In this document: positions 10,653 to 55,250 of the stretch, piece by piece
How the letters are laid out: each line of letters starts with the position of its first letter
Position numbering within the stretch: the stretch's first letter is position 1
Origin: an uncultured Thermoanaerobaculia bacterium
Lineage (GTDB): Bacteria; Acidobacteriota; Thermoanaerobaculia; Multivoradales; J023
Direction of reading: 5' to 3'
Assembly: GCA_964565225.1 (NCBI GenBank)
Contig: CAZMEL010000001.1
Location: forward strand, 1,424 to 65,423
Length of the DNA: 64,000 bases
Notes under the pieces: model-generated
Seen by the model: only the letters and a program-made list of their open reading frames with translations
Databases searched by the model: none
What the model was told of the DNA's origin: nothing
Position numbers and translations under genes: made by a program

Positions 10653-13085
10653 GTGACGAAAGAGACTTCGACACGAAAAAAGCCGGACGCGGGACTGTCG
10701 GGTAGATTTTCCCGCTGGATCGTTGGCCATCCCGGCCTGGCTTTGATCTTGGCCTTGGCGATTGCCGTTCCTGCCGCCGTCGGACTTCCACGGATTACCT
10801 CCGACTTCACCCATCGGGGATTCTTCCGCGCTGAAGATCCCCTGCTGCTGGCCGTGGACCAGTTCGAGCGCCGCTTCGGCAACGACGATTCGGTGGTGCT
10901 CTTGATCCACAGCCCTTCCGGCATTTTCGATCGTGAATCGGTCGAGCTCCTGCACGAGCTGACCGAACGGATGTGGCGGGTACCCGAGGTGATCCGGGTG
11001 CAATCCCTGAGCAACTTCCGTTGGGTCCATGCCACGGGCGACGAAATCGAGATCGAGCCCTTGCTGCCCGAGCCCTTGGCGCCCGGAGATCAGCCCCTCA
11101 CCCCGGAGTTCCTGGCCCAACGTCGGCAAGTGGCCCTGGAGCACGAGCAGCTTCCCGGTTGGTTGGTGAGCGAGGACGGAAAGACCACGGCGATCTTCGC
11201 CTATATCCGGCCCGGCATCGACACCACTCCGGACATGCCACTGATCACCTCCACGGTGGAGGAGATCGCGGCCGAGGTGCACGGACGAGGTGGTGACCAC
11301 CAGCTCTACGTCACCGGTCGAGCGGCGGTGAATGCCACCTTCAAGCGCAGCATGCAGGCGGATATGCAGTCCCTGGTGCCCTTGGTCTTCTTGCTCACCC
11401 TGGTCTTCCTCGGCCTGGCCTTCCGCCGGGTGGGCGGAGTGCTGCAGCCCTTGATCGTCATTCTTTTCTCGGTGCTGGCGGCCATGGGCCTGATGGGTTG
11501 GCTCGATCTGAAGATGACCAATACCACCTCCATCCTGCCGCAGATTCTCATGGCCATCGTCGTGGCGGATTCGGTGCACGTGCTGAGCACCTTCTACGAG
11601 CGCCTCCGAGCCGGGGCCGAGCGTCGGCAGGCGGCAATCGACGCGCTGACCAAGAATGTGAGACCCACTCTACTGACCACCATCAGCACGGCCGTGGGTT
11701 TCTTCTCCTACGCGCCCTCGGCCATCTTGGCGGTGGCCAGTCTGGGAATCGCCGCCGGCCTCGGCACCATCTTGGCCTGGCTCTTCACCTATCTGGTCTT
11801 GGGGCCCATGCTAGCTGTGCTGCCCGTACGTCGCCCCAGAACCCGGGCGGACCGGGCCGAAGACGAAGGTGATGCCGGCGAGCCCGCGATGCCTCGCCGC
11901 CGGGCTTTTGTCACTTTCTTGGATCGTCGCTGCGTGCCCCTGGTGATCGCTGGCTTCGTGTTGGTGGTCGTGTCCTTCGTGCTCAGCCTGGGTAATACGG
12001 TGAATTCCGATCCCTTCGGGTATTTCAAGAAGGGCACCCCCGTGCGCACGGCCAACGATTTTGCCGAGGAGCATCTGGGCGGGGTCAACGGGGTCGAGAT
12101 CGTGATCGAAAGCGGCAGTCCGGAAGGGGTGAAGGACCCCGAGTTCCTGCGCCGGGTAGCGGCTTTCCAGGCCTGGGTGGACGAGCAGCCGGGGGTGAAC
12201 AAGACCGTTTCCCTGATCGACATCCTGCGCCAGACCCACCGCGCCCTGCACGGTGGCGGTGACGAGCACTATCGCCTGGCCGACACTCGGGAAGAGGTGG
12301 CCCAGGAGATTTTTCTCTACACCATGAGCCTGCCCCAGGGCATGGACATCAACGACCGCCTGACCGTGGAGAACGATGCCTTGCGCATGTCGGTGCTGTG
12401 GACCGTCCGCCGCTCCGAGGACTTCGTGCGGGAAGCGGCGCGACTACAGGCCAAAGCCAAGGAAATGGGCCTCGACACCGTCACCACCGGAAAGATGATG
12501 CTCTACCAGAGCATGAACGGCTATGTGGTGGATTCCTTCCTCACTTCCATCTCCATTGCCATGGTGCTGATCAGCCTGCTCTTGGTGGTGGCCCTGCGCT
12601 CGGTGTGGCTCGGCGCCTTGGCCCTGGTGGCCAACGTGGCGCCGCTCGTGGTGGGCGGCGCCTTGATTCGCCTCATGGGTCAACCCCTCGACGTGGGCAC
12701 AGTGATCGTGGCCAGCGTCTGTCTGGGCATCGCGGTGGACGACACCATCCACTTCTTGGCGGACTTCGAGCGCTGGCGGGCCAGGGGGTTGAAGGTGCGG
12801 GAAGCCACCCTGCAGGTCTTCTACCACACGGTGCCGGCCCTGCTGACCACGACGGTGATACTCGTCGCTTCCTTCGGCATCTTCGCCCTGGCCGACTTCA
12901 CGCCCAATCGCAACTTCGGAGTCTTGACCGCGGGCGTTCTCGGCACCGCCTTGATCATGGACATCACCCTGCTCCCGGCCATGCTCCTGGCCTTCGATCG
13001 GCGAGGTGAATCGAAAAAAGAAGCAGCCCGCACCGAGACGGATTTGGTGACCGGTGAGCCGGTCACGGAAGGGTCCCTATCGTGA
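10653..13085 (+). CDS. MMPL / RND-superfamily inner-membrane transporter (HpnN-like lipid exporter), 810 aa.
   Basis: Two 6-TM blocks, each followed by a large periplasmic loop, with a sterol-sensing-domain-like TM pattern. The track start is a GTG. Confidence 0.85.
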   Translation: MTKETSTRKKPDAGLSGRFSRWIVGHPGLALILALAIAVPAAVGLPRITSDFTHRGFFRAEDPLLLAVDQFERRFGNDDSVVLLIHSPSGIFDRESVELLHELTERMWRVPEVIRVQSLSNFRWVHATGDEIEIEPLLPEPLAPGDQPLTPEFLAQRRQVALEHEQLPGWLVSEDGKTTAIFAYIRPGIDTTPDMPLITSTVEEIAAEVHGRGGDHQLYVTGRAAVNATFKRSMQADMQSLVPLVFLLTLVFLGLAFRRVGGVLQPLIVILFSVLAAMGLMGWLDLKMTNTTSILPQILMAIVVADSVHVLSTFYERLRAGAERRQAAIDALTKNVRPTLLTTISTAVGFFSYAPSAILAVASLGIAAGLGTILAWLFTYLVLGPMLAVLPVRRPRTRADRAEDEGDAGEPAMPRRRAFVTFLDRRCVPLVIAGFVLVVVSFVLSLGNTVNSDPFGYFKKGTPVRTANDFAEEHLGGVNGVEIVIESGSPEGVKDPEFLRRVAAFQAWVDEQPGVNKTVSLIDILRQTHRALHGGGDEHYRLADTREEVAQEIFLYTMSLPQGMDINDRLTVENDALRMSVLWTVRRSEDFVREAARLQAKAKEMGLDTVTTGKMMLYQSMNGYVVDSFLTSISIAMVLISLLLVVALRSVWLGALALVANVAPLVVGGALIRLMGQPLDVGTVIVASVCLGIAVDDTIHFLADFERWRARGLKVREATLQVFYHTVPALLTTTVILVASFGIFALADFTPNRNFGVLTAGVLGTALIMDITLLPAMLLAFDRRGESKKEAARTETDLVTGEPVTEGSLS

Positions 13086-13810
13086 GCGTACAGACTCCTC
13101 ACAACGGCTCGCCGTCGGCCGGTCCCCGCTCGGGAGCCGCGTCCGTGGCCTGGCTGCGGCGCCAGTTCATGCATCCCACGGGGTGGGGCGGCCGCCTGGC
13201 CGGTTGGGTGATGGCGCGCAAGAACGCGGCGATCAATCGGAAGGCGGTGGAGGTCTTGAATCCCGGTCCCGGAGCTCGGGTTCTGGAAATCGGTTTCGGA
13301 CCCGGGGTGGCCATCGCGGAGCTCGTGAAGCGAGCGGCCCGGGTGGCCGGTATCGACCATTCCGAAACCATGGTGGAGGCCGCGGCCTGGCGCAATCGCG
13401 ACGCCATCCGCGCCGGTCGCTTGGAGCTGGTCCACGGCTCCGCGGACGAGCTGCCCTGGGAGGCCGGAGCGTTTACCCACGCCCTGATGGTGAATTGTCT
13501 CTATGCCTGGTCCGACCAGGCCGCCGAGATCCTGAAAGAGATTCAGCGGGTGCTCGACGACGACGACGGTCGGGTCTTGATCGGTGTGCGCATGACCACA
13601 GGAGAGGATGGTATGCGTTCTCCCGGGGCCGGGGCCGAAGCCATCGCCGGTATCGAGGTCGGATTGCGGCAGATCGGCTACGAAGAGGTGGAAGTCACCC
13701 GCCACGCCGTGGGGAGCCGTGAGATGTCGGCGATTTGCGCTTGGCGACGGGCGCGAGCCGGAGCCGGTGGGGAGAAGAGCCACATTGAAACCACAATCGA
13801 GTCGAGATGA
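13082..13810 (+). CDS. Class I SAM-dependent methyltransferase, 242 aa.
   Basis: Motif I VLEIGFGPG and a downstream acidic-loop pattern. A GTG at 13082 overlaps the MMPL stop (GTGA). Confidence 0.75.
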   Translation: MSVQTPHNGSPSAGPRSGAASVAWLRRQFMHPTGWGGRLAGWVMARKNAAINRKAVEVLNPGPGARVLEIGFGPGVAIAELVKRAARVAGIDHSETMVEAAAWRNRDAIRAGRLELVHGSADELPWEAGAFTHALMVNCLYAWSDQAAEILKEIQRVLDDDDGRVLIGVRMTTGEDGMRSPGAGAEAIAGIEVGLRQIGYEEVEVTRHAVGSREMSAICAWRRARAGAGGEKSHIETTIESR

Positions 13811-14730
13811 CGTTTTCTGTCGAGCCTAAATCCATGACCATACGGAGCCGAAGGGCCATGTTTATTCAGCCTTGTAATTCTCAGCCTCGAAATCGAACCC
13901 CCCGAGGTCGGCGATCCCGGACCGGACTCTCGATCTCGGCGGCCCTGCTCACCGCCCTTGCCCTGGTGCCGGTCACCGGTGCGGATACCCCGGGCATGGA
14001 AGTCGGAGCGGTCAAGGGTGATGCCGAGGCCCGCGGTCTGGCGGTGGCCGAGCAGATGCGCGAGATGCGCCGGGGTTTCGGCGGTGAGTCGTCCGCAATG
14101 GAGCTGGTGTTGATCAACGCTGCCGGTGACGAGGTGACGCGGCGTATGGCTTCCCGCACCCTGGAAATGGAAGACGACGGTGATCGCTCCCGGATCACGT
14201 TCAAGTGGCCGGCGGATGTGGAGGGCACGGAGCTGCTCACCTGGAGCCATCGCCAGGGGGCCGACGACCAATGGCTCTATCTGCCGGCGATCCAGCGCGT
14301 GAAGCGCATCAGCTCGCGCAACAAATCCGGCTCATTCATGGGCAGCGAGTTTTCCTACGAGGATTTGGGCAGCCAGGAGGTGGAGCAATTCACCTACCGC
14401 TATTTGCGGGAAGAGAAGCTCGGCGGCCGCGACACGGTGGTCATCGAGCGCTACCCGGAAGACAAGCTCAGCGGCTATGCCAAGCAAGTGGTGTGGTACG
14501 ACATGGAATACGGTCGGCCGGTGCAGATCCACTACTTCGATCGTAAGGAAGAGCTTCTGAAGATCTCTACCTTTGGCGATTTTCGCAAGCTCGGGCAGTG
14601 GTGGCGCGAGCATCGGATCGAAATGTCCAACGTCCAGACCCACAAGAGATCGGTGATCACTTGGCAGAGCCGCACCTTGGAAGAGGAGCACACGATCTTG
14701 GATTTCGAACGAACCGCTTTGGGTGATTGA
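13807..14730 (+). CDS. Periplasmic LolA-like outer-membrane lipoprotein-sorting / lipid-carrier protein. The start is uncertain.
   Basis: ATG 13807 overlaps the MTase TGA (ATGA), but the first ~20 codons are AT3-rich and look non-coding. An alternative start at ATG 13858 gives a signal peptide ...RTGLSISAALLTALALVPVTGA. The mature part resembles the LolA-like family typically paired with MMPL exporters. Confidence 0.65.
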   Translation: MTFSVEPKSMTIRSRRAMFIQPCNSQPRNRTPRGRRSRTGLSISAALLTALALVPVTGADTPGMEVGAVKGDAEARGLAVAEQMREMRRGFGGESSAMELVLINAAGDEVTRRMASRTLEMEDDGDRSRITFKWPADVEGTELLTWSHRQGADDQWLYLPAIQRVKRISSRNKSGSFMGSEFSYEDLGSQEVEQFTYRYLREEKLGGRDTVVIERYPEDKLSGYAKQVVWYDMEYGRPVQIHYFDRKEELLKISTFGDFRKLGQWWREHRIEMSNVQTHKRSVITWQSRTLEEEHTILDFERTALGD

Positions 14731-14755
14731 TTCCCTGAATCGAGCATAAACCGAC

Positions 14756-16078
14756 ATGAGCCTGTGTGATCAAGAACCGTGCCGCCCGGCAGGGCGGCGA
14801 TGGGGAATCCTCGCCTCTATCGCCCTACTGGGCGCTCAGGGAGCCGGATTCGCCTGCGGCGAGGAAGGGGCGACGCCCTTCTGGTCCGTCAAGGGAGAAA
14901 CGGCGCTCGAAGCCCGTGCTTTCAACGGCGACGGAGATTCCCGAACCGAAGATGTCGGTCTGGCCCTCACCGGTCGATTGGAGGCCAAGGGCTCGCGGGG
15001 TCCGTGGCGGAGCCAAGTGCGACTCTTCGGTCGTGCGGACGCCATGGACTCGGATCGGCGCCTCGCGGTGGTGGAGGAGGCGTGGGTGGAGCACCGTCGG
15101 GGACGTTGGCAGTTCCGTGCCGGCGTCGAGCTCTTCAACTGGTCGGCCACCGAGGCCTTCCACCCCGCGGACGTGGTCAACAGCCGAAATCTGGACAGCG
15201 ACTTGGAGAGCCTCGAGAAATTGGGTGAGCCCATCATCGGTACCATCGTGCGGATTCCGGCGGGTGAGGTCTCGGCCTTCTACCTGCCCGTGCGAGTGGA
15301 TCCCGAGTTCCCGTCCGCGAAGTCTCGCCTCAGCTTTGCGCCGGCCGGTTGGGAGGTGGAGGAGCCTCTGTGGATCGGCTGGGACGGTGAGGCGGACGAC
15401 GGCGATTTCGGCGATCAGTGGTTGGTGCGGGTGCTCCAGAGCCGCGGCCCGGCGGATTTCGACTTCCACGTTCTGCGTCACTTCGATCGAAGCCAGCCGG
15501 TTGTGCTGGTGGACCCGGAGCGGCAGAGTGTCCAGCCCGTCTTCCTGCCCGTGACTCAGATCGGCGGCACCGTCCAAGCGGTGCTCGGCTCCTGGGTGGG
15601 CAAGTTGGAGTGGTCTCATCGCACTTTCGAGTCCGGGTCATTGGCCCTGCCGGGATCGGGCACGGTGACAGTGGATCAGCCGGACCACCAGCAGGTGGCC
15701 ATGGGGGTGGAATACGGCACCAATACAGACGCGGGGGCCACGGGTACCTGGTTTCTGGAAGCCCAAGGGGTGCTCGGTGTGGACGAGGACGAACGAGCGA
15801 GTCTTTCCACTTTTCAGCGGGATGTCCTGGTAGGCTATCGGCACGATTGGAACGACATTCCCGGTCGACGCCTGACCGCCACCCTGATCGGCGACGCGGA
15901 GCGCGGCGACGAATGGCTCTTGAGCCTGGCCTACTTCCAACGCCTGGGAGGCGGCTGGGGTCTGGACGCCAATCTGCGCTTGATCGATGCCGAGCCGGAT
16001 GTGCCGTCGGATCCCGTAGGTCTCGAGCGTCTGGACGGTGATCATCAATTGCGTTTCGTGTTCCGCAGATATTTCTAG
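14756..16078 (+). CDS. Putative outer-membrane beta-barrel protein (DUF1302-like), 440 aa.
   Basis: Signal peptide WGILASIALLGAQGAGFA. Aromatic-rich with alternating-hydrophobic segments. C-terminus ...LRFVFRRYF ends in Phe, the OMP C-terminal signature. Its position after the MMPL and LolA-like genes fits a three-tier export conduit. Confidence 0.5.
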   Translation: MSLCDQEPCRPAGRRWGILASIALLGAQGAGFACGEEGATPFWSVKGETALEARAFNGDGDSRTEDVGLALTGRLEAKGSRGPWRSQVRLFGRADAMDSDRRLAVVEEAWVEHRRGRWQFRAGVELFNWSATEAFHPADVVNSRNLDSDLESLEKLGEPIIGTIVRIPAGEVSAFYLPVRVDPEFPSAKSRLSFAPAGWEVEEPLWIGWDGEADDGDFGDQWLVRVLQSRGPADFDFHVLRHFDRSQPVVLVDPERQSVQPVFLPVTQIGGTVQAVLGSWVGKLEWSHRTFESGSLALPGSGTVTVDQPDHQQVAMGVEYGTNTDAGATGTWFLEAQGVLGVDEDERASLSTFQRDVLVGYRHDWNDIPGRRLTATLIGDAERGDEWLLSLAYFQRLGGGWGLDANLRLIDAEPDVPSDPVGLERLDGDHQLRFVFRRYF

Positions 16079-16285
16079 ACCGATGTTCTTCAGGGAACAG
16101 ATATCCGGATCCGTGAACTTCGATTTGTCTGAAACAAATATAGCAAATCAGCAAACTTTTGAATATTGGATGTGCAATTGGTTTTCATTTTAAGGCTTTG
16201 AGCTTGCACTAGATCACTGGAATCTGAGAGAGGGCCCCCGAAAAACGGAGGCTCGAATCAGGCGGCAAAGGTAAGCGAGGCTCCC
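16079..16285 (+). promoter_or_regulatory. AT-rich promoter / leader region of the PKS-NRPS operon. Contains the direct repeat AGCAAA-tc-AGCAAA (16142..16155) and a TTGAAT box (16159..16164).
   Basis: A marked AT-rich island in an otherwise GC-rich sequence, immediately upstream of the first megasynthase gene. No confident -10 box was identified. Confidence 0.3.
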
Positions 16286-19200
16286 ATGAGTCCCCAAGCG
16301 TCTCCAGCTACGAATGAAGAGCCCTGGGCTGATCTGGACGAGCTCCAGAATTGGCTGATCGGTAATCTCGCGTCCCGCTTGGGCGTCGACCGCTCGAGAT
16401 TGGATCCGAGTGAGCGTTTCCATCGCTTCGGTTTGGATTCCGCTCGGGCAGGCGGTTTGGTTGCGGATCTGTCCGCCTACTTGGGACGCGCTCTGCCGCC
16501 GACCCTGGTGTGGGACTACCCGACGGTGGAGAAGCTCTGCGCCTTCCTGGTGCTCGGCGGGACAGAGCCCGAAGCGGGGCCGTCAGCGCCGCGGAGCCCC
16601 GTCGGCGCCACCATGGACATCGCGGTGGTGGGGTTGGCGTGTCGTTTTCCCTCGGCCGAGGACCCCGAGTCCTACTGGCGCCTGCTCGAGAACGGCGTGG
16701 ACGCCATCCGCGAGGTGCCGGGTGATCGCTGGGATCTGGAATCTCTCTACGATCCGGACTCCAAAGCCGCCGGCAAGATGTCCACTCGGTGGGGCGGATT
16801 CCTGGAGCGGGTGGACGCCTTCGATCCTCAATTCTTCGGCATCTCCCCCCGCGAGGCGCTCCAGATGGATCCCCAACAACGCCTCTTCCTGGAGCTGGCC
16901 TGGGAGGCCCTGGAGAACGCGGGCATCGCGGCCGATGGTCTGCGGGGAAGCCGCACCGGGGTTTTTGCAGGGGTGATGTGGAACGACTACGCCAAATTGC
17001 TCGGCGCCGGGCTGGACACTTTGAGCGAGCATTCCGCCACCGGCCAGGACACCAGCATCGTGCCGGCCCGGGTGTCCTACGTGCTCGGATTGGAAGGGCC
17101 GAGCCTGGCCATCAACACCGCCTGCTCGTCGTCCCTGGTGGCCGTCCACACCGCTTGCCAGAGCCTGCTGCGGGGCGATGCGGACATGGCCCTGGCCGGC
17201 GGCGTCCACCTGGTGGTGTCCCCCCATTCCACGGTGTCGATGACCAAATTCGGCGCCATGGCTCCGGACGGTCGCTCCAAGGCCTTCGACCACCGAGCCA
17301 ACGGCTACGTGCGCGGCGAGGGCGGTGGACTGGTGGTGCTCAAGCCTCTGCGCGACGCGGTGCGGGACGGGGAGCGAATCTGGGCCGTGGTGCGTGGCGG
17401 CGCGATCAACAACGACGGTTTCAGCAATGGCCTGACCGCGCCCAACCCCAAGGCCCAGGAAGCCATGCTGCGGGACGCCTACGACGGCTCCGGCATCGGG
17501 CGGAGCTCCGTTCATTATGTCGAGACCCACGGCACCGGCACTCTGCTCGGGGATCCCATCGAGGCCGGCGCCCTGGGCTCGGTGCTGGGCAGGGATCGCG
17601 ATTCTGAAGACTTCTTGCGCATCGGCTCGGTGAAGACCAATTTCGGTCACACCGAGGCCGCGGCCGGCGCCGCCGGCCTGATCAAGGTTCTGCTCTCCAT
17701 GGGGCGGCGGCAGCTTCCTCCGAGCCTGCACTTCGAGCGTCCGAATCCACATATTCCCTTCGACGCCATCGGCCTCAAGGTACAGACGGAGCTCGAGCCA
17801 TGGCCGCGACGGGCGGAGAAGGCCCTCGCCGGGGTCAGCTCCTTCGGTTTCGGCGGCACCAACTGCCATCTGGTGCTCGAAGCACCCGCGAGAGCTCGAC
17901 CTCTGCTGTTACCCCTCGCCGCGGCAGATCGTGCCAGCTTGGCGGCAGAGGCCCGGCGGGTGCGCGCCTTGCTCGATGGTTCGGACGAGCCCTTGGATGG
18001 ATTGATTCGATCGTTGCGCCTCCGCGCCCGTGGTCCGTATCGCACTGCGGTGGTGGTGCAAGACCGGCAGAGGGCCGTAGAGGATCTTGGCGGCCTCGTG
18101 GAATTCTTGACCTCGGAACCGGGTAGCGAGCGCCTGGGCCTGCCGGGGGTCGTGGAGCCGGGATTTGTCGACGTCGAGGGCAAAGGGCCGGTCTTCGTGG
18201 CCTCGGGGCAGGGTAGTGAGCATGCCGGAATGTGCAAGGAGCTGCTCCTCACGGAGCCCGTCTTCCGCGCCATGATGCAGCGCTGTGACGAGATCTATCG
18301 CCCCTTGGGCGGCTGGTCCCTGATCGAGGAGCTGCTGGAAGAGGAACCGAGATTTGCCGACACCGGCCGCAACCAACCCATGCTCTTCGCCATGCAGGTG
18401 GCTCTGGCCGAGCTGTGGCGGTCCTGGGGCGTGGAGCCGGCCGTGGTGGTGGGGCATAGCGCCGGTGAGCTGGCGTCCGCTTTCTTGTCCGGCTCGTTGG
18501 ATCTGCACCAAGCCCTGGAGGTAGCCCATCACCGGGGCCGCCTGACTCAACAGACCGCCGGCCTGGGCAAGATGGCCGTGCTCGACATGTCCGCGGACGA
18601 AGCACGTGAGGCCCTCGTCGGCCGGGAGGAGCTGCTCTCAGTGGCCGTGGACAACAGCCCAGGCACCTGTGTGGTCGCCGGGGATCCCGAGGCGTTGGCG
18701 CAGTGGACGGCCGAGCTGGCACGGGACCGGGGCCTCGAAGCCAACTACGTGAAGGTGGACTACGCCTCCCACTGTCCACAGATGGATTCCGTGCTCGACG
18801 AGCTGGAAGCGTCCGTGGCCCATGTCGTGCCGAAACCCCCCGAGTTGAAGGTGATCTCGACGGTAACCGCGGAGCCGATCGAGGATGCCGGTTTCGACGC
18901 TCGATACTGGCGCCTGAACTTGCGCCGGCCCGTGCGCTACGCCGACACTCTGAAGGCCCTCGTGACGTCGGGGCACAGCTGCTTCGTGGAGCTATCGGGC
19001 CATCCGGTGCTGGCCAAGCCCACGGCGCAAGCGGTGGCGGCTCACGGCGATCTCGAGCGGGCCGTCGTCGTGCCGTCCATGCGCCGGGATTGTGACGAGC
19101 AGGCGCTCCTGATGGAATCTCTCGGTCGCCTGTGGGTGAGTGGTCGCACCCTGCGATGGGACGCAGTCCATGGACCGGGGGAGGTGGCTTCGCCGGCCGA

Positions 19201-22200
19201 GCTCGCCCACTGGCCCGAGGTCGACCATCCGGAGCCGGTCTCCGACCCGGCCCCGCAATCGGAATCGGTCCCGGGCTCCGTCTTGGTGCTGCCCATTTCT
19301 GCCCGCAACGCCGAGGCGCTGGGTCAACTGGCCCGCCGCTACGCCGACGCTCTCGAAGCTGCTCCCCCGGCGTCCGTGGTGGACTGGGCCCACACCGCCG
19401 GAGTGCGGCGCAGTCACATGGAGGAACGGGCGGCCATCGTCTTCCGCCACGTGGCCGAGCTGCGCAGCGGCTTGAAGGCGGTGGCCGACAGCGCCGACCT
19501 GCCCGCTGTCGTGGCACGGGGACGCAAGCGCAATCGCGTGAAGGACGTGCCGGTCTTCGTCTTCTCCGGCCAGGGCAGCCAATGGCCGCGCATGACCCTG
19601 GATTTGTTGGCCGGTGAAACGGCTTTTGCCCGCGAGCTGCGCCGGGTAGACGCCGCCTGGCAGCCCGTGGCCGGCTGGTCGCTGATCGAAGAGCTGGAGC
19701 GTCCCGAGGGCGAGTCTCGCCTGGGAAACACCGAGGTGGCCCAGGGCACGATCTTCGCGGTGCAACTGGCCCTCGCCGCTCTGTGGCGGTCATGGGGCGT
19801 GGAGCCCGCCGCGGTGGTGGGGCACAGCATCGGTGAGGCGGCCGCCGCTCGAGTGGCCGGCATCCTCAGCCTGGAAGACGCCGTCACCCTCGTGTATCAC
19901 CGTGGACGAGCGATGGCCGCAAGCACCGGACGCGGCGGACGCATGGCCCAGGTGGAGCTTCCCTTGGCGGACGTGGAGCTCTATCTGGAAGAGGAGCCCA
20001 CGGTATCGCTGGCGGCGGTCAATGGCCCGAGCTCGGTAGTGATCGCGGGCGACGGCGAAGTCTTGGACGGAGTGGTGGATCGCCTAGATGCGGACGGCGT
20101 GACGGTGCGTCCTCTGCGGGTGGATTACGCCTTCCACAGCCACCACATGGATGCGGCGTTGCCCGAGCTGGAGCTGGCTCTGGCCGGCCTGGAGCCTCTG
20201 CCGGGCGAGATTCCCATGGTGTCCACCGTGACTGCCGAGCCCGTGGACGGCACCGCTCTGGACGCGGCCTATTGGTGTCGCAACGTGCGTTCCACGGTGC
20301 GCTTCTCCGAAGCGGTGGCCCGGTTGGCCGCGGACGGTGCCGATATCTTCGTGGAGGTGTCGCCCCATCCGGTGCTCGCCGCGAGCCTGGAGCAGATCCT
20401 CGAAGCTGCGGCCGCAACCGATGCCGGCCAGGAGGATCGGGTCTCGGCAGATCGGGCACTGGTGGTCTCGGGTCCTCGGCGCCCATGCGACCGTGCCAGC
20501 ACGGGCTCCCCGATGGACGGTCCGAGCCAGATGGCCGTGTCCCTGGCCCGGCTCTATGTCGCGGGCCTGGAGCCCCACTGGCCCGAGGTCAACCCCGCCG
20601 GTCGTGGCCATGTCGACCTGCCCACGTATCCGTGGCAGCGTCGGCGCTATTGGCTACCCGACGAGCTGCCGGCCGGTCGCTCCCGGCGCCTCGACCATCC
20701 CTGGCTCGGCGAGCATCTCACCGTGGCCACGGTGGAGCCGCGGCAGATCTGGCAGCGCCCGTTGGATCTGCCCTATCTGGCCGATCACCAGCTACGGCAA
20801 TCCGCCGTCTTTCCGGCCGCAGGCTATTTGTCGGCGGCCTGGAGCGCGGCCGAGGCGTCCGGCTGGACGGCGCTGGAGATCCACGACGTGTCCTTCACCC
20901 GCGCCCTCTCGTTGCCGGATGTGTCGCCGGGGTCCGAGGGCCTGCGCGCGGTGGTTCCTTCGCTGCAAACCATCTTGGAGGTGGAAGGTGCGTCCGCCGC
21001 CCGCTTTCGATGCGCTGCCGTAGAAGAAGCACCGGGGGACGAAAGTCCGGAGCCCGCCTTGCACGCGAGGGGACGCCTGCGGCGGAATCCGGCTCCTTCG
21101 CAGGTGGGTTCGGATCCCCGGCGGATGGTGGAGCTCGGCAGTCCGTCGAGCGGTGCAGAGCACTATGCGCGCATGGCTTCCCGCGGCCTGATCTACGGTC
21201 CGAGCTTTCGAGCGGTGGACGAGCTGTGGCTTGCGGATGGTAGAGCGGTGGGGCGCTTGACACCGACCCTCGAAGACACCGCCTACGCCTGCCATCCCAC
21301 TCTGCTCGACGGTCTCTTGCAGTTGTTGGAAGCGGCCCTTTCCGACGAGATCTCGCCCCCCGGCACCCTCTACCTGCCCGCCGCGGTGGAGCGTCTGCGG
21401 GCCTGGGAACAGGTACGCGGCGAGGTCTTCTGGGGTACCGCCGTGTTGCGGCCCGGCGCTGAACCGGGAGCCCGGCGGGTGGTAGGAGATCTGCAGCTCT
21501 TCGACGCCGACTACCGTCTGTTGTTGGAGATGCAGGGCGCGGCTTTCGAGCGGGTGGGTGAGGGTGTGGAGCCCGCTGCCGAAGGAAGTGGAGCCGATCT
21601 GGGCGTGCCCCTGTGGCAGACCCGCTGGGCTGTGGACGAGGCTGCGGTCTACGGCCCGTTGCCCGAGACCGAGGCCTTGCCGCCAGCCGCTCCCGACTCC
21701 TGGGTGGTGCTCACCGACAGCAAAGGGGTGGGTGAGAAGTTGATCGCGAGCCTACGGGCCGCCGGCCGGCGAGTCCTGGAGGTGGCGGCCGGCGATGCCT
21801 TCCTGCGCAGTCGTGAGCATCTGATGGTGGCTCCGCGGCGTCGGGAGCATCTCTTCTGGATGCTCGAAGAGGCGAGCCGCGGCGTGGACGGCCCCCTGGG
21901 CGTCGTCCACCTCTGGTCCCTGGACGCGGATCCTGGACCGGACGCTATGAGCGAGGATCTGAGCGCGGCCTACGACCTGGGCGTGATCTCGGCCCTGCAT
22001 TTGACTCGGGCCCTGGCCTCGGGGCGGGCGCCCGAGGTTCCCGGTGGACCGTTCTGGGTCACGGCCGGCGCCACGAGCCTCGGCAAGGGTCGACGGGATC
22101 CGGGCGGGGCCGGAGCCCTTTGGGGGCTGGCCCAGACCTGGGTGTTGGAGGAGCCGCGCCCCGGTTGTCGCTTGGTGGACTTGGACCTTGCGAATGCAGC

Positions 22201-24661
22201 GGGAACGGCCGATGCACGAGCAGCGGCCGACGCCCTGCTGCGGGAGATCGTGGGAGCCTTCACGGACTCGGCTACGGCTGCGCCGGCCTTGAGCCGAGCC
22301 GCGTGGAGCGAAGGTCGCCGCTTCACGCCCGAGCTGGCACCGGCCGTGCTGCGAGCCGGTGAGCCGGTGCTCGAAGCCCCCGGGGATCGGGCCTTCCGAC
22401 TGGGGCTGCGGCGGCCGGGCTCCCTGGACCACCTGCGATTCGAAGAAGTGGCGGAGCCGACGCCGGGTCCTGGCCAAGTGGTCATCGACGTGAAGGCCGC
22501 CGGCCTCAACTTCCGAGATGTGCTCAAGGCGCTGGACATGTACCCCGGCCTCGACGGTCCGCCCATGTTGGGTGACGAATGTGCCGGTGTCATCTCCGCT
22601 GTGGGAGAGGGGGTCACGGATCTGGCCCGGGGCGATTCGGTCATGGCCTTGGCGGATCATGCCCTGGCTGGTCGAGTCGTGGCCGAAGCGGACCTGGTCT
22701 TGCCCAAACCCGAATCCCTGAGCTTCGAGCAGGCCGCGGGGCAATTGCTCACCTACCTCACCGCCCACTACGCCTTCGACCATGTGGCCCGCTTGCAGCG
22801 CGGGGAGAAAGTCTTGATTCACGCCGCGGCCGGTGGTGTGGGCCTGGCGGCGGTGAACCTGGCACGTCGGTTGGACGCCGAGATCTTCGGGACCGCCGGC
22901 TCCGAGCACAAGCGCGACTACCTGCGCAGCGTGGGTGTGGCCCACGCCCTGGACTCCCGCTCCCTCAGCTTCGTGGACGGGATCCGCGAAGCTACCGGCG
23001 GCGAGGGCGTGGACGTGGTTCTCAACTCCCTGGCCGGGGAAGCCGTGCCCGCAAGCCTTTCGGTGTTGGGCAAATATGGTCGCTTCCTGGAGATCGGTAA
23101 GCGAGACATCTACGCCGATCGTCCTCTGGGCCTGGAGCCTTTCCAGCGCAATCTGACCTACGCGGCCATCGACGTGGATCCGGTGTTCCGGGAGCGTCCG
23201 GCCCTGGCCCGTCGACTGCTGGCAGAGGTGGTGGCCATGCTCGCCGGAGGTGAGGTGGCACCCCTACCCGTGGAAGTTTTTCCGGCGGCACAGGTGGTGG
23301 ATGCCTTCCACCACATGGCGCAAGCCAAGCACGTGGGCAAGATCGTGATCGCCACCACCGACCGGCAAACGCCGATCATGGTGCCGCGTGCCCGTCGCTC
23401 CACGCGCTCGGGCACCTGGCTGATCACCGGCGGCTTCGGCGGCCTCGGCCTGGCCGTTGCTTCCCGCCTGGCCGACCGCGGGGCCCAACGTCTGGCCCTT
23501 GCCGGTCGTCGCGGTGCCCCGGACGAAGTCCGTCCCGATCTCGACGCCCTGCGCGCTCGCGGTGTCCGAGTGGAGGAGATCCGGATGGATGTGACCCGGG
23601 CCGACGAGGTGGACGAGGTAGTGCGTGCTCTGGCCGCTGGCGACGAGCCCTTGCGGGGCGTGATCCACGCTGCCGGCGTGCTCGACGACGGAGTGCTCTC
23701 CCAGCTGGATCGTTCGCGTTTCTTCGGGCCGGCGGCGGTGAAGATGGCTGGCGCCTGGAATCTGCACCGGGCCACTCGGGACCTGTCCCTGGATGCCTTC
23801 GTTCTGTTCTCGTCCGTCACCTCGGTTCTGGGCTCCCCGGGTCAGGCCAACTACGCCGCCGCGAATGCCGGGCTCGACAGCCTGGCCTCTTATCGCCGGG
23901 CCGCCGGCCTGCCTGCCGTGTCTGTGCAATGGGGACCGTGGAACGAGGTTGGCATGGCCCAGCGCTCGGTGCTGCGTGGTGAGCGCCTGGCCCAGAACGG
24001 CCTCGCCGGTATGGATCCCGCCGACGCATTGGACGCCCTGGAGAGGGTTCTCGACGGCGACGCAGAGCGGATCATGGCCGCCCACTTCGACGCCTCCGCC
24101 TGGCTGCGTGCACATCCGTCCGCTGCAGGTCCGTTCCTGCGGTCCATGGCGAACGGTACCGACGTCTCGGCAGTAGAGGCGGCAGGGCCGGTGGAGCGCT
24201 TGCGTGATGCTGCGCCAGAGGAGCGTCCGGCCATCCTCCTCGATCATCTGCGATCCAGAGTGGTGGAGGTGCTGCGCCTGGGAGACCTGTCGGTCGATGC
24301 GTCCACCCCTTTGCGCGCTCTGGGTCTCGACTCCTTGATGGGGGTGGAGCTGCGCAATCGGCTGGAAGCGGACCTCCAGGTTCGCCTCTCTGCCGGCCTG
24401 GTGTGGAACTACCCTACCTTGGAGCTGATGGTGCCCCACCTGCTGTCGCGCCTGGAGGCGGCGGGTGAGCTCACCGCCGAGAAGGGCACCGCAGAATCCA
24501 CCGGGGCGACGAGCGAGCGAACCGAGCTGCCTCGGGTCTCGAAGCCGGCGGCGGAGTCGTTTCCCGACCCGGGCCATGCCATTGCCGAAGCCGTAGAAGC
24601 CATGTCCGAGGAAGACGCCGAGGCCCGCCTGTTGGCGGAGCTCGAAGCCCTCGAGCTGTGA
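16286..24661 (+). CDS. Type I PKS with loading and first extension module: ACP(L)-KS-AT(L)-AT-DH-ER-KR-ACP, 2791 aa.
   Basis: N-terminal carrier [11 protein letters not shown] (Ser52). KS with [22 protein letters not shown]. Two consecutive linker+AT units, GHSAGE near 18452 with YASH, and GHSIGE near 19820 with YAFH. DH HPWLGEHxxxxP near 20700. [16 protein letters not shown] near 22820. [14 protein letters not shown] near 23420. [14 protein letters not shown] near 24330. C-terminal docking helix. Confidence 0.95.
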
Positions 24662-24686
24662 GATCTGGGTGGGGAAGGAGAGAGCC

Positions 24687-27600
24687 ATGAGCACAGATCG
24701 AGGAAACGGCAAGGATTCGGCGGCCAAACGGGCGCTGATCGCGGTACAGACCCTGCGCACCAAATTGGATGCCGTGCAGCGGGCCCAGAAAGAGCCCATC
24801 GCGGTGGTGGGCATGGGTTGTCGTTTTCCGGGCGGTGCCGAGAGCTTGGATGCCTACTGGCAATTGCTTCGGGACGGTGTGGACGGCATCGTGGAGATTC
24901 CGCCCGACCGTTGGGACGTCGACGACTACTACCACACCGACGAGGCCAAGGCGGGCAAGATGAATACCCGCTGGGGCGGATTCCTGCGCTCGTCGATCCG
25001 GGAGTTCGACGCCGACTTCTTCGGCATCTCGCGCCTGGAAGCGGAGCATATGGATCCCCAACAACGGCTGCTCCTGGAGGTGGCCTGGGAGACCTTGGAG
25101 CATGCGGGTGAAGCGCCGGAAGGCGTGGCCGGCAGCCGTACCGGGGTCTTTGTGGGTGTGACCAGCCACAGCGACGAGTACTGGCAACGCTTCATCGATC
25201 CGGCACGGATCGGTGCCTTTTCGGGCACCGGCACCTCCCACAGCGTGATCTCGGGTCGCCTCTCCTACTTCTTCGACTTCCACGGCCCGAGTGTGGCCGT
25301 CGATACCGCCTGCTCCTCCTCGTTGGTGGCCGTGCACCAGGCGTGTATGAGCCTGCGGGCCGGGGAATGTGACGCCGCCCTGGCGGGGGGCGTCAACCTG
25401 ATCCTGGAGCCCCACTTCACCATCGCCATGTCGCGCATCGGTCTGATGGCGTCCGACGGTCGGTGCAAGACCTTCGACCACCGGGCCGACGGCTACGTGC
25501 GCGGCGAAGGTTGCGGTCTGGTGATGTTGCGTCGCCTGTCGGACGCCCTGGAGCGCGGGGATCGCATCCTGGCCACGATCCGCGGCTCCGCCGTGGTGCA
25601 GGACGGCAAGACCAACGGCCTGTCGGCTCCCAACGGCCTGTCCCAACAAAAGGTCTTGCGCGCCGCCCTGGAGCAAGCGGAGCTGTCCGCCGAGGATGTG
25701 GGCTACATCGAGGCCCACGGTACGGGCACGGCCCTGGGGGATCCCATCGAGATCGAGGCCCTCGACGCGGTCTACGGCGAAGGCTGTGGATCCGGTCGGC
25801 GATGTACCGTGGGCGCGGTCAAATCGAATGTAGGGCACCTGGAGGGAGCGGCCGGAATCGCCGGTTTGATCAAAGCGGTGCTCGTCCTGGACCGCGCCGT
25901 GATTCCCAAGAACCTGCACTTCGAAGAGCTCAATCCCCACATCGAGCTGGACCACAGCCCCCTCGATCTGGCCACGTCCACCGAGCCCTGGCCTCGCACC
26001 CGAGCCCCCCGTCACGTCGGCGTCAGCTCCTTCGGATGGTCGGGCACCAACGCCCACGTGGTGTTGGGAGAGGCCCCGGAGACGGCGCCGCGACCGGATG
26101 CCCGAGATCGTCCCGCGCTCCTCTGCCTGTCCGCGGCGAGCCCGGCGGCCCTCACCATCGCCGCCGAGCGCCTGGGCGACTTCTTGGCCGGGGAATCGGG
26201 CGAGGAATCGGCTGCTTCTGCACCCGAGCTTCGGGACGTGGCCCACACCCTCACCCGAGGCCGTGCCGTCTTTCCCCATCGCCTGGCTCTGGCCGCCGAA
26301 ACCCCGGCCGAGGCCGCGGCGGAGCTGCGTGCCTTCGTGGAGCACGGGCGACCCGGGCGCAGCTCGGCCGTCGGCCCTCGGGAGAGCGGAGCCACGGGGG
26401 AAGAGCCCGTGGTCTTCGTCTTCTCGGGTCAGGGCAGCCAGTGGGCCGGCATGGCCGCGGACCTCTACGAGCAGCAGCCGATCTTCCGCGAGGCCCTGGA
26501 TCGGGTGGACGCGGCCTTGGTGGCCGAGGGCGTGACCTCTCCCAAGGCCGCCATCGCAGAGGACGAGGCATCCGGCCGCATGCAGCGCACGGACGTGGCT
26601 CAACCGACGATTTTCGCGGTGCAGGTGGCCTTGGCCGAGCTCTACGCCTCCCTGGGGGTGAAGCCGGCTGCGGTGGTGGGCCACAGTGTGGGCGAGATCG
26701 CGGCCGCGCTGGTGGCCGGCGCCTTGGATCTGAAAGGCGCGGCGCGGGTGGTTCGCCATCGCTCGCGCCTGATGCAGAGCCGCACGGGTCTGGGACGCAT
26801 GGCCTTGGTGGCCGTCGGTGCCGACCGGGTGGCCGAGGTCTTGGCCGAGCTCGATACCTTTGCCGGCCGGGTGGTGGCCGCGGCCTTCAACGCGCCCGAC
26901 GCCACGGTGCTGGCCGGCGACGAAGAGGCCCTGGAGGCGGCCTTGGCCCGCTTTGCCGAGCTCGGCGTGGAGGCCAAGAGCCTTCGCGTGGACTACGCCT
27001 TCCACAGCCCGCAGATGGATCCTGTGCTCGACGAGCTGGAAACGTCCCTGGCCGGTCTGCAGAGCCGTGAGCCGGTGGTGCCCATGGTGTCCACGGTGAC
27101 CGCCGCGCCGGTGGCCGAGGGAGAGCTAGGAGCCGGCTACTGGCGCCGCAATGTGCGGCTGCCCGTTCGTTTCGCCGACGCCCTGGAACGCCTGCTGGCC
27201 GACGGCCGTCGCACCTTCTTGGAGGTGGGACCCCATCCGGTGCTGTCCATGGGTATGGGGGACCAGCTGCGCGAGCGGGGAGAGAAGGGTGTCGTCGCCG
27301 GGTCCCTACGCCGGGGTGAGCCCGGGCTGCGCAGTCTGTGGATCGGCTTGGCGGCCCTGTGGACCGCCGGTGTGCCCGTGGACCGGCACGCGGTGAACGG
27401 CACGGGCGGACGCACCGTGGATCTGCCCACCTACCCTTGGCAGCGCTCCACCCATTGGCTGGAGCGCCCGGCTCTCGGTTTCGGTGCATCCGCGTCGAGC
27501 ACGGCCGGCTTGTTGGCGCCTCCTGCCGACCATCCGCTCCTGGGCGTGCATGTGGAGGTGGCGGCGGATCGTCCTACCCACATTTTCGAGGCGCAGCTGC

Positions 27601-55239: not shown

Positions 55240-55250
55240 GGGGGAATGTG

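What the first reader, a model, noticed from the sequence alone, without database searches (positions are those of the whole stretch)
16286..20300. Myxobacterial-style mixed loading/first module with tandem AT domains (ACP-KS-AT-AT)
The first PKS starts with a carrier domain ([11 protein letters not shown]), followed by a true KS (Cys in TACSSSL). Two complete KS-AT-linker plus AT units follow back to back.

- AT1: GHSAGE near 18452, with a YASH motif near 18765.
- AT2: GHSIGE near 19820, with a YAFH motif near 20130.

This ACP-KS-AT(L)-AT arrangement, with one AT loading the starter and the other the extender, is known from soraphen, stigmatellin, aurafuron and myxothiazol-type myxobacterial PKSs. 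It supports a Myxococcota origin. It also suggests a non-acetate starter, with the adjacent acyl-CoA dehydrogenase possibly involved.
Basis: partly seen in the sequence, partly recalled or inferred. Interest (0 to 1): 0.5.

Follow-up and report, generated by a model that had tools for sequence, protein, structure and literature searches.

The report
Polyketide synthase start with two acyltransferases
The first gene of a large antibiotic-type assembly line really does begin carrier–ketosynthase–acyltransferase–acyltransferase, a rare but already known way of choosing the starting building block, here found in an uncultured bacterium that cannot be shown to be a myxobacterium.

Summary
ORF 16286-24661 (2791 aa) reads ACP-KS-[linker-AT1]-[linker-AT2]-DH-ER-KR-ACP. 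Both ATs are full length (Pfam E 1e-76 and 2e-82) and keep the Ser-His dyad. The gene recurs with 5 SNPs in two other metagenome assemblies, so it is not an assembly artefact.

It is a new member of the known StiA/SorA/MtaB/JomP1 "mixed loading plus first module" type. KS1 belongs to the group of KSs that follow an N-terminal ACP (median 65% identity, against 50% to other KSs).

AT2 carries the same YAFH/GHS(I/V)GE signature as the two downstream extender ATs and is followed by the only canonical post-AT linker. It is the malonyl extender AT. AT1 is most likely the starter loader.

AT1 is atypical for a loader. It keeps the carboxylate-binding Arg (R750) and a YASH motif, and has a unique E645/H646 pair. 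A propionate-type or branched starter is plausible but unproven.

- The architecture is not diagnostic of Myxococcota, and two flanking genes give no myxobacterial signal.
- The acyl-CoA dehydrogenase lies 31.5 kb downstream, with no specific link to the starter.

Interest is modest.

The parts
16286..24661 (+). PKS1, the first PKS gene: ACP_L-KS-LD1-AT1-LD2-AT2-DH-ER-KR-ACP1 (2791 aa)
   Evidence: One continuous ORF with the Pfam domain set. Found at the same length in two other assemblies.
16079..16285 (+). AT-rich 207-nt intergenic region upstream of PKS1. No other loading domain (KSQ, GNAT, FAAL or AT) is encoded ahead of the ACP.
   Evidence: Sequence read. The ORF list shows that the upstream gene ends at 16078. 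No consensus promoter or terminator was found.
16331..16558 (+). N-terminal loading carrier domain ACP_L (aa 16-91); phosphopantetheine Ser52 at nt 16439
   Evidence: Pfam PP-binding E 6.2e-13 on aa 1-105 alone. GLDS motif.
16610..17743 (+). KS1 (aa 109-486), condensation-competent: Cys280, His415, His455
   Evidence: Pfam ketoacyl-synt E 8e-96 and Ketoacyl-synt_C E 8.5e-39. Motifs. Median 64.8% identity to 90 KSs that follow an N-terminal ACP, against 50.4% to 309 other KSs.
17744..18187 (+). LD1, the first KS-AT linker domain (aa 487-634)
   Evidence: BLASTP against the PKS2, PKS4 and PKS3 KS-AT linkers: E 1e-20, 1e-18 and 3e-17. Pfam KAsynt_C_assoc E 5e-14.
18188..19132 (+). AT1 (aa 635-949), the proposed starter-loading AT. 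Residues: Q642, E645/H646 (unique), GHSAGE Ser725, Arg750 retained, YASH His829. It ends in a truncated post-AT stub without LPTYPW.
   Evidence: Pfam Acyl_transf_1 E 1.2e-76. Full-length alignment to DEBS AT3. Residue table. Class-HMM difference of +6.9 bits towards first-AT models.
19133..19549 (+). LD2, a second copy of the KS-AT linker domain between AT1 and AT2 (aa 950-1088)
   Evidence: Pfam CurL-like_PKS_C E 1.7e-15 and RhiE-like_linker E 3e-7. BLASTP against the PKS3 linker E 4e-15.
19550..20443 (+). AT2 (aa 1089-1386), the extender AT, predicted malonyl. Residues: GQGSQW, GHSIGE Ser1181, Arg1206, YAFH His1284.
   Evidence: Pfam E 1.6e-82. Alignment to DEBS AT3. Same signature as the PKS2 and PKS3 ATs, and 50% and 47.6% identical to them. 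Class-HMM difference of -20.4 bits.
20444..20695 (+). Canonical post-AT linker with LPTYPWQ (aa 1445). It is present only after AT2.
   Evidence: BLASTP against the PKS2 post-AT linker E 2e-11. Motif position.
20696..24451 (+). Full reducing loop and module-1 carrier: DH (HPWLG, aa 1471), ER ([10 protein letters not shown], aa 2177), KR (YAAAN, aa 2523), ACP1 (Ser2683)
   Evidence: Pfam PKS_DH_N/PS-DH, ADH_N/ADH_zinc_N, KR and PP-binding. Motifs.

Best explanation
PKS1 is a fused loading module and first extension module of the StiA/SorA type.

**Proposed steps.**
1. AT1, the AT directly after the KS, transfers the starter acyl group from CoA to Ser52 of the N-terminal ACP_L.
2. ACP_L hands the starter to Cys280 of KS1.
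3. AT2 loads malonyl onto the C-terminal ACP1.
4. KS1 condenses the two units.
5. DH, ER and KR reduce the product fully.
6. PKS2 and PKS3 add two more fully reduced malonyl units.
7. A Cy-A-Ox-PCP module then caps the saturated chain with a thiazole or oxazole.

**Shown.** Domain order, intact catalytic residues in ACP_L, KS1, AT1 and AT2, the two linker-AT units, and family relationship.

**Inferred.** Which AT serves which ACP, and the substrates.

**My commitment on the starter.** A short non-acetate unit of the propionate or alpha-branched type. It would be loaded either directly as an acyl-CoA, or as methylmalonyl-CoA that KS1 decarboxylates on ACP_L. Confidence in the starter identity itself is only about 0.35.
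For: - **Architecture and catalytic residues:**
- **AT2 looks like an extender AT.**
  - It shares YAFH plus GHS(I/V)GE with the PKS2 and PKS3 ATs and is the AT closest to them (50% and 47.6%, against 45% and 38% for AT1).
  - It alone is followed by the LPTYPWQ post-AT linker that leads into the DH.
- **Class models.**
  - Models were built from the 33 first ATs and the 33 second ATs of database tandem proteins. In a jackknife they separated the two classes in 65 of 66 cases.
  - AT1 scores +6.9 bits towards the first-AT class.
  - AT2, the PKS2 AT and the PKS3 AT score -20.4, -21.7 and -32.9.
- **The family relaxes carboxylate-site residues only in the first AT.**
  - Arg117-equivalent: kept in 22 of 33 first ATs and in 33 of 33 second ATs.
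  - Gln11: kept in 14 of 33 first ATs and in 32 of 33 second ATs.
- **KS1 belongs with KSs primed from an N-terminal ACP**.
- **Single-AT relatives.** Alphaproteobacterial ACP-KS-AT-...-ACP-KS-ACP proteins keep only the AT next to the KS. That AT is of the first-AT type (GNGxQ/VAYH).
- **Literature.** In SorA the first AT confers benzoate priming when moved into DEBS (PMC5655351, citing Wilkinson 2001). The first-AT-loads-starter model is the accepted one for myxothiazol, myxalamid and soraphen (PMC6117699).
- **Non-acetate starter.** AT1 has Ser at position 200 (YASH) where the cluster's malonyl-type ATs have Phe. YASH versus HAFH is the established methylmalonyl versus malonyl marker (PMC6164871).
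Against: - AT1 does not look like a classical monocarboxylate loader. It keeps Gln642 and Arg750. That arginine stabilises the free carboxylate of dicarboxylic substrates in extender ATs and in the ATs of KSQ-type loading modules (PMC5655351).
- StiA-type first ATs have Leu or Gln at that position instead.
- AT1 does not cluster with other first ATs in a neighbour-joining tree. Its best per-domain matches are an even mix of first and second ATs, at about 250 bits and at most 45.5% identity.
- The +6.9-bit class signal is weak.
- AT1 has E645/H646 where 66 of 66 and 64 of 66 family ATs have Q and W. Changes in this GQGSQ motif were taken as a sign of inactivity for JomP1 AT2 (PMC6117699).
- No biochemical data exist for this protein.
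Confidence: 0.68

Rival explanations
1. Carboxylated priming without a KSQ domain. AT1 is a genuine methylmalonyl-CoA-type AT that loads methylmalonyl onto ACP_L. KS1, which keeps its Cys, decarboxylates it to propionyl-ACP_L and then takes it as the primer. The division of labour is the same as in the best explanation, but the chemistry of initiation differs.
For: - AT1 carries the full dicarboxylate signature: Gln642, Ser725, Arg750 and YASH with His829.
- That arginine stabilises the substrate's free carboxylate in extender ATs and in KSQ-type loading ATs (PMC5655351).
- A subset of database first ATs shares Arg plus YASH: P0081, P0089 and P0113.
- From my own knowledge rather than a test here: module KSs are known to decarboxylate methylmalonyl-ACP slowly.
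Against: - No KSQ or other decarboxylase is present.
- GHSAGE, rather than GHSQGE, is unusual for methylmalonyl ATs, and so is E645/H646.
- A negative charge at 645 near the pocket could disfavour a dicarboxylate. This is an inference.
- Characterised members of the architecture use monocarboxylic starters (PMC6117699).
Confidence: 0.2
2. AT1 is a crippled or purely structural remnant. AT2 serves both carrier domains, or ACP_L is primed in trans. The starter would then be acetate from malonyl decarboxylation.
For: - The E645/H646 substitution sits in a motif that is otherwise invariant in 66 family ATs.
- A comparable GQGSQ change was taken as inactivating in JomP1 AT2 (PMC6117699).
- Single-AT ACP-KS-AT relatives exist.
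Against: - The Ser-His dyad, Gln642 and Arg750 are all intact, and the Pfam match is full length at E 1e-76.
- The one SNP within AT1 (codon 792), seen between the window and the two other assemblies, is synonymous. Over the whole gene 4 of 5 SNPs are synonymous.
- In the single-AT relatives the retained AT is the one next to the KS, not an AT2-like domain.
Confidence: 0.08
3. The roles are reversed. AT1 (YASH) is the methylmalonyl extender AT for ACP1, and AT2 loads ACP_L.
For: - AT1 has an extender-like active site.
- LD1-AT1 is covalently next to the KS, as in a canonical module.
Against: - AT2 has the same signature as the extender ATs of PKS2 and PKS3, and it scores as a second-AT or extender class domain.
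- Only AT2 is followed by the canonical post-AT linker.
- The SorA precedent places the loader first (PMC5655351).
Confidence: 0.04

Closest known systems
StiA, the first protein of the stigmatellin PKS (Stigmatella aurantiaca; P0058)
   Same: - Same order, ACP-KS-AT-AT-...-ACP.
- 48% identity over 96% of the 1405-aa query.
- KS1 is 66% identical and ACP_L 55%.
   Different: - The first AT of StiA has GTGSQ, Leu at the Arg117 position and TPSH. The window's AT1 has GQGSEH, Arg750 and YASH.
- The second AT of StiA is GHSMGE/VASH, against GHSIGE/YAFH here.
- StiA has no ER match in its precomputed Pfam list, whereas the window's module is fully reducing.
SorA loading/first module of the soraphen PKS (Sorangium cellulosum)
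   Same: ACP-KS-AT-AT architecture, with the first AT acting as starter loader. This is shown by a swap into DEBS (PMC5655351, citing Wilkinson et al. 2001).
   Different: - SorA loads benzoyl-CoA.
- The window's module feeds a saturated alkyl chain, not a macrolide.
MtaB (myxothiazol) and the myxalamid loading module
   Same: - Two adjacent ATs, with the first proposed to load 3-methylbutyryl-CoA, or isobutyryl-/2-methylbutyryl-CoA (PMC6117699).
- From my memory of the myxothiazol cluster, not tested here: a reducing PKS start followed by a thiazole-forming NRPS.
   Different: - Sequences were not compared here.
- The downstream assembly line differs: three Cy-A-PCP modules, a free-standing Cy protein, a KS-AT-ACP module and a separate thioester reductase.
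JomP1, jomthonic acid PKS (Streptomyces caniferus)
   Same: ACP-KS-AT1-AT2-KR-ACP outside the myxobacteria (PMC6117699). Three Streptomyces proteins with this order are among the hits (P0113, P0115, P0117).
   Different: - In JomP1 it is AT2 that carries the aberrant GQGSQ motif and is proposed to be inactive.
- Here the deviation (GQGSEH) is in AT1.
Alphaproteobacterial ACP-KS-AT-...-ACP-KS-ACP proteins (for example Geminicoccus harenae L056, Falsiroseomonas stagni L036)
   Same: - They hold the most similar ACP_L-KS unit found: KS 62-69% and ACP_L 47-63% identical.
- The N-terminal ACP is followed by a Cys-type KS and an AT of the first-AT type.
   Different: - They have only one AT, joined by a linker of about 60 aa. 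Later modules lack cis ATs.
- The window's AT1 is only 36-39% identical to their AT.

Membership tests
ACP-KS-AT-AT mixed loading/first module (StiA/SorA/MtaB/JomP1 type) | The protein starts with a carrier domain bearing the phosphopantetheine Ser, with no other loading domain ahead of it | tested here: met
   PP-binding E 6e-13 at aa 23-88, with Ser52 in GLDS. The ORF starts after a 207-nt non-coding gap.
ACP-KS-AT-AT mixed loading/first module (StiA/SorA/MtaB/JomP1 type) | A condensation-competent KS (Cys-His-His) directly after the N-terminal ACP | tested here: met
   Cys280, His415 and His455. Pfam E 8e-96.
ACP-KS-AT-AT mixed loading/first module (StiA/SorA/MtaB/JomP1 type) | Two complete AT domains in tandem between the KS and the processing domains, each with the Ser-His dyad | tested here: met
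   AT1 E 1.2e-76 and AT2 E 1.6e-82. Ser725/His829 and Ser1181/His1284. Full-length alignments to DEBS AT3.
ACP-KS-AT-AT mixed loading/first module (StiA/SorA/MtaB/JomP1 type) | The KS is related to the KSs of other ACP-first modules rather than to ordinary extension KSs | tested here: met
   Median 64.8% identity to 90 first KSs, 50.4% to 309 others, and 44-53% to the window's own KS2-4. Caveat: the comparison set was recruited by similarity to this protein.
ACP-KS-AT-AT mixed loading/first module (StiA/SorA/MtaB/JomP1 type) | The first AT is of the loader type, with altered carboxylate-site residues or grouping with other first ATs | tested here: inconclusive
   - Arg750 and Gln642 are retained. 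The Arg is also retained in 22 of 33 family first ATs and the Gln in 14 of 33.
- The class-HMM difference is only +6.9 bits.
- AT1 does not cluster with first ATs in the neighbour-joining tree.
ACP-KS-AT-AT mixed loading/first module (StiA/SorA/MtaB/JomP1 type) | The first AT acylates ACP_L with the starter, and the second AT acylates the module ACP with the extender | not testable with these tools
   Needs transfer assays or mutants. Only the SorA precedent from the literature is available (PMC5655351).
KSQ-type (type A) loading module | The KS active-site Cys is replaced by Gln, in the order KSQ-AT-ACP | tested here: not met
   The KS has Cys280 in TACSSS, and the order is ACP-KS-AT-AT.
AT-ACP (type B) loading didomain | An N-terminal AT followed by an ACP, placed ahead of KS1 | tested here: not met
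   The ACP precedes the KS, and both ATs follow it.
Myxococcota origin of the locus | The flanking non-PKS genes and the PKS itself have their closest relatives in Myxococcota | tested here: not met
   - Threonine aldolase: the nearest named hits are Acidobacteriota (71% and 66%) and Verrucomicrobiales (69% and 67%).
- Histidine kinase: the nearest named hits are Betaproteobacteria at 33-38%.
- The best full-length PKS1 relatives are at most 50% identical (Sorangium) and span several phyla.
- Only two flanking genes were tested, so the phylum remains undetermined.
Caerulomycin/karnamicin-type pyridine-forming line (considered as a role for the ACAD) | KS-AT-ACP, then Cy-A-PCP, then a shortened C-like Ct domain that recruits a trans ACAD-like flavoprotein, then a DCL-type C-A-PCP (Leu) and a type II TE | tested here: inconclusive
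   - Gene content is similar: KS-AT-ACP, Cy-A-PCP, a lone C-type protein, C-A-PCP, TE and ACAD.
- But the lone domain is a 495-aa Cy-type protein with a DxxxxD motif. Its Pfam Condensation match covers profile positions 36-356 of 456.
- The last module is also Cy-type, not DCL.
- No CaeB1 or KnmD sequence was available to compare.
- The family description comes from PMC8149447 and PMC9838390.

The most novel reading that the evidence does not exclude
AT1 may be a previously undescribed kind of loader. Either it primes ACP_L with a carboxylated unit that a normal Cys-KS decarboxylates, which would be KSQ-free decarboxylative initiation. Or its unique Glu645/His646 pair neutralises the retained Arg750, so that an extender-type active site has been converted to take a monocarboxylic starter. 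In both cases the ACP_L-KS unit would be a cassette that moves between phyla and picks up different ATs. Here it sits in a lineage with no close sequenced relatives and feeds an undescribed lipo-thiazole/azoline aldehyde.
Probability: 0.2. Interest if true: 0.45.

Novelty: new member of a known kind. Interest (0 to 1): 0.3.

Why it matters
The tandem-AT start is one of the few ways a cis-AT PKS chooses an unusual starter without a separate loading module, so each new example is useful for engineering starter choice. This one matters for three modest reasons:
- With the Streptomyces, Acidobacteriota and Spirochaetota hits, it shows that the arrangement is not a myxobacterial signature and should not be used for taxonomic calls.
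- Its first AT combines loader position with an extender-like active site (Arg plus YASH) and a unique E/H substitution. That makes it a natural test case for what really determines starter versus extender selection.
- It heads an uncharacterised PKS/NRPS line with three fully reducing modules, four Cy domains and reductive release, in an uncultured organism.

None of this overturns current understanding.

Tried and rejected
- **Assembly artefact or recent duplication: rejected.** AT1 and AT2 are 42.5% identical, and the gene is reproduced in two other assemblies.
- **Looking for the source genome or a near-identical protein: nothing found.** No hit exceeded 50% over the full length in the 5.8-billion-protein set or in the GTDB representatives. 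An exact look-up of PKS1 found nothing on record. Cluster look-ups gave no organism names.
- **Finding a closest AT1 relative by exhaustive HMMER search of 1.84 billion representatives.** The best identities were about 44%. The ranking was dominated by multi-AT giants. Per-domain re-scoring showed no specific AT1 group.
- **Karnamicin/caerulomycin-type pyridine assembly line, which would have explained the ACAD as a CaeB1/KnmD-like trans flavoprotein.** Gene content is similar. However, all four C-type domains, including the last module and the lone one, are Cy-type with DxxxxD. I therefore do not file the cluster there.
- **ACAD as a specific isovaleryl-CoA or other named dehydrogenase.** It falls below every NCBIfam cut-off. 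Its best solved relative is human short/branched-chain ACAD (E 6e-121). No directional link to starter supply was found.
- **Aurafuron as a precedent.** It could not be verified in the held literature.
- **Structure prediction.** Not run. KS through AT2 is 1362 aa, over the 1200-aa limit, and model coordinates are not returned, so the Glu645-Arg750 distance could not have been measured.
- **A-domain specificity codes.** Not extracted, because no reliable reference alignment was at hand.

Full report
**1. Observation**

The region lies in a single 2791-aa ORF, 16286-24661 on the + strand. Pfam gives the order PP-binding, KS (N and C), KS C-terminal extension, Acyl_transf_1 (two stretches), a CurL/RhiE-type KS-AT linker at aa 1001-1068 between them, then DH, ER, KR and a second PP-binding.

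- GLDS, Ser52, nt 16439.
- TACSSS, Cys280, nt 17123.
- GHSAGE at nt 18452.
- YASH at nt 18761.
- GHSIGE at nt 19820.
- YAFH at nt 20126.

KS1 also has both catalytic histidines (His415, His455).

Scanned on their own, the pieces give:
- N-terminal ACP: E 6e-13.
- AT1: E 1.2e-76, covering 312 of 319 profile positions.
- AT2: E 1.6e-82.

Each AT aligns end to end with the crystallised DEBS AT3 at E about 1e-69.

**2. Not chance, not an artefact**

The two ATs are only 42.5% identical to each other. That is no closer than either is to unrelated ATs. An assembly duplication is therefore excluded.

The same 8376-nt gene occurs in a 456-kb ENA scaffold from another sample and in a 42.6-kb Logan contig. 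There are 5 substitutions, 4 of them synonymous. The surrounding 21 kb is 99.95% identical.

**3. Anatomy of the tandem unit**

- **LD1.** Residues 487-634 are homologous over their length to the canonical KS-AT linker domains of PKS2, PKS3 and PKS4 (E 1e-20 to 3e-17).
- **After AT1.** A short stub resembles the start of a post-AT linker but lacks the LPTYPW motif.
- **LD2.** Residues 950-1088 form a second linker-domain copy (E 4e-15 against PKS3; Pfam CurL-like_PKS_C E 1.7e-15).
- **After AT2.** Only AT2 is followed by a canonical post-AT linker (LPTYPWQ at aa 1445), which runs into the DH.

The description 'two linker+AT units back to back' is therefore right.

Upstream of the ACP is a 207-nt AT-rich non-coding gap, with no other loading domain.

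**4. Which AT does what**

*AT2 looks like the extender AT.*
- It has GQGSQW, GHSIGE, Arg1206 and YAFH. This is the same signature as the ATs of the two following fully reducing modules (GHSVGE/YAFH).
- It is the AT closest to them: 50% and 47.6% identity, against 45% and 38% for AT1.
- Phe at position 200 is the malonyl marker of the HAFH/YASH rule (PMC6164871). AT2 is therefore predicted to load malonyl.

*Comparison set.* I collected 33 database proteins with a true ACP-KS-AT-AT order.

*The family relaxes carboxylate-site residues in the first AT only*:

| Residue | First ATs | Second ATs |
|---|---|---|
| Arg117-equivalent kept | 22 of 33 | 33 of 33 |
| Gln11 kept | 14 of 33 | 32 of 33 |

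*Class models.* Profile HMMs of the two classes separated members in 65 of 66 jackknife trials. The window's scores were:

| Domain | Score difference (first-AT model minus second-AT model) |
|---|---|
| AT1 | +6.9 bits (first-AT side) |
| AT2 | -20.4 bits |
| PKS2 AT | -21.7 bits |
| PKS3 AT | -32.9 bits |

*KS1 belongs to the ACP-first group.*
- Median identity is 64.8% to 90 KSs that directly follow an N-terminal ACP.
- It is 50.4% to 309 other KSs, many of them from the same proteins.
- It is 44-53% to the window's own KS2-4.
- The same holds protein by protein: StiA 66%, Sorangium 67-69%, Vicinamibacterales 66%, Streptomyces 64%, Geminicoccus 69%.

*Single-AT relatives.* A large group of alphaproteobacterial proteins has ACP-KS-AT-...-ACP-KS-ACP with one AT only. 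That AT sits next to the KS and is of the first-AT type (GNGxQ, VAYH).

*Literature.* The first AT of SorA confers benzoate priming when moved into DEBS (PMC5655351). The 'first AT loads the starter' model is the one used for myxothiazol, myxalamid and soraphen (PMC6117699).

Together these make 'AT1 loads ACP_L, AT2 loads ACP1 with malonyl' the best-supported mechanism. I put it at about 0.68.

**5. What AT1 loads is open**

- AT1 is not a textbook monocarboxylate loader. It keeps Gln642, Ser725, His829 and Arg750.
- That arginine stabilises the free carboxylate of dicarboxylic substrates in extender ATs and in KSQ-type loading ATs (PMC5655351). StiA and its myxobacterial relatives have Leu or Gln at that position.
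- AT1 also has YASH, the methylmalonyl-type motif.
- GHSAGE is unusual. So is Glu645/His646, in a motif where 66 of 66 and 64 of 66 family ATs have Gln and Trp.
- AT1 has no specific relatives anywhere. The best identities in 1.84 billion representatives are about 44%. Its best single-domain matches are an even mixture of first and second ATs.

I therefore commit only to a short non-acetate starter of the propionate or alpha-branched kind. Two routes remain open:
- direct loading of an acyl-CoA;
- loading of methylmalonyl followed by KS-mediated decarboxylation (rival, 0.2).

An inactive AT1 (0.08) and reversed roles (0.04) are less likely but not excluded.

**6. Context**

Downstream genes are as follows:

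| Coordinates | Gene product |
|---|---|
| 24669-31388 | PKS2, KS-AT-DH-ER-KR-ACP |
| 31417-37878 | PKS3, KS-AT-DH-ER-KR-ACP |
| 37875-42224 | NRPS with TubC-type docking domain, Cy-A-Ox-PCP |
| 42283-45525 | PKS4, KS-AT-ACP |
| 45628-48987 | NRPS, Cy-A-PCP |
| 48980-50467 | free-standing Cy protein |
| 50554-53940 | NRPS, Cy-A-PCP |
| 53956-55239 | thioester reductase |
| 55119-56051 | type II thioesterase |
| 56187-57401 | acyl-CoA dehydrogenase |

All four C-type domains carry the DxxxxD heterocyclisation motif.

The predicted product is a saturated alkyl chain (starter plus three C2 units) on a thiazole or oxazole. It would then be extended by a beta-keto C2 unit and further azoline rings, and released reductively. 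This prediction is an inference from domain content.

**7. The acyl-CoA dehydrogenase**

- It is not adjacent to PKS1. It lies 31.5 kb beyond the end of PKS1, at the distal edge of the cluster.
- It falls below every NCBIfam cut-off.
- Its best solved relative is human short/branched-chain ACAD (E 6e-121). Such an enzyme would consume, not supply, branched acyl-CoAs.
- I considered a CaeB1/KnmD-like trans flavoprotein role (PMC8149447, PMC9838390). The Cy-type last module and the full-length lone Cy domain do not fit that system well.

**8. Origin**

The window comes from a metagenome.

- No reference genome has a close relative of PKS1. The best full-length match is 50%, in Sorangium sp. So ce1000.
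- Among the reference-genome loci fetched, the true tandem-AT ones are mostly Myxococcota. Eight of nine are named as Sorangium, Pyxidicoccus or Myxococcota, Myxococcales or Polyangia MAGs.
- The protein set, however, also holds the architecture in Streptomyces, a Vicinamibacterales MAG and a Spirochaetota MAG. It has been published for Streptomyces JomP1 (PMC6117699).
- The nearest named relatives of the flanking threonine aldolase are Acidobacteriota and Verrucomicrobiales, at 66-71%.
- Those of the flanking histidine kinase are Betaproteobacteria, at 33-38%.

The phylum is undetermined, and a Myxococcota origin is not supported.

**9. Verdict**

This is a correct observation of a known, uncommon PKS initiation architecture. 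It is a new member of a known kind, in an uncultured lineage. Its first AT is an interesting but unresolved hybrid of loader position and extender-like active site. Interest is 0.3.

Noticed in passing
window 44002-44907 (AT of PKS4, gene 42283-45525): The AT of the KS-AT-ACP module has an unusual active-site signature: GGGSQY instead of GQGSQW, GHSNGE, and VGAHS in place of HAFH/YASH, with the Arg retained. This suggests a non-standard extender unit or altered function.
   Followed up: partly
window 37875-42224, 45628-48987, 48980-50467, 50554-53940: All four condensation-type domains are heterocyclisation (Cy) domains with DxxxxD motifs. One of them is a free-standing 495-aa Cy protein with no A or PCP domain. 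The first NRPS has a TubC-type docking domain and a nitroreductase-like Ox insertion.
   Followed up: partly
window 56187-57401: The acyl-CoA dehydrogenase sits at the far end of the cluster. It is 136 nt after the thioesterase gene, and its stop overlaps the start of the next gene (FG-GAP/ASPIC protein, 57398-59611). Its best solved relative is human short/branched-chain ACAD (E 6e-121). Its role in the pathway, if it has one, is unknown.
   Followed up: partly
window 53956-55239 and 55119-56051: A free-standing thioester reductase (TIGR01746, E 4e-99) rather than a C-terminal R domain. The thioesterase ORF as listed overlaps it by about 120 nt, so its true start is probably further downstream.
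   Followed up: no
window 10653-16078: A four-gene set lies directly upstream of PKS1: an MMPL/sterol-sensing-type transporter, a methyltransferase, a LolA-like/TP_0789-like protein and a 440-aa protein with no Pfam or NCBIfam match. It is possibly a lipid or lipopeptide export system for the product.
   Followed up: no
loci L019-L072 (for example L056 10001-12706, L036, L027): A widespread alphaproteobacterial PKS family (Geminicoccus, Falsiroseomonas, Roseomonas, Thalassobaculum and others) starts ACP-KS-AT, with a single AT of GNGxQ/VAYH type joined by a linker of about 60 aa. It continues with AT-less KS-ACP modules. Its first KS is 62-69% identical to the window's KS1.
   Followed up: partly
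window 1-64000 (composition): G+C is 66-72% across the PKS genes (about 18-42 kb) but 61-65% in the flanks and in the NRPS part. I did not examine whether this reflects a foreign origin of the PKS genes or their amino-acid composition.
   Followed up: no
window 2506-4080 (- strand): A gene for a phage-tail-sheath-like protein (Phage_sheath_1C E 2e-11), suggesting a contractile injection system or prophage remnant near the cluster.
   Followed up: no
window 8411-9832 (- strand): Apart from its own entry, the PhoQ-like histidine kinase has no relative above 38% full-length identity among 5.8 billion proteins. This suggests an organism with no close sequenced relatives.
   Followed up: partly
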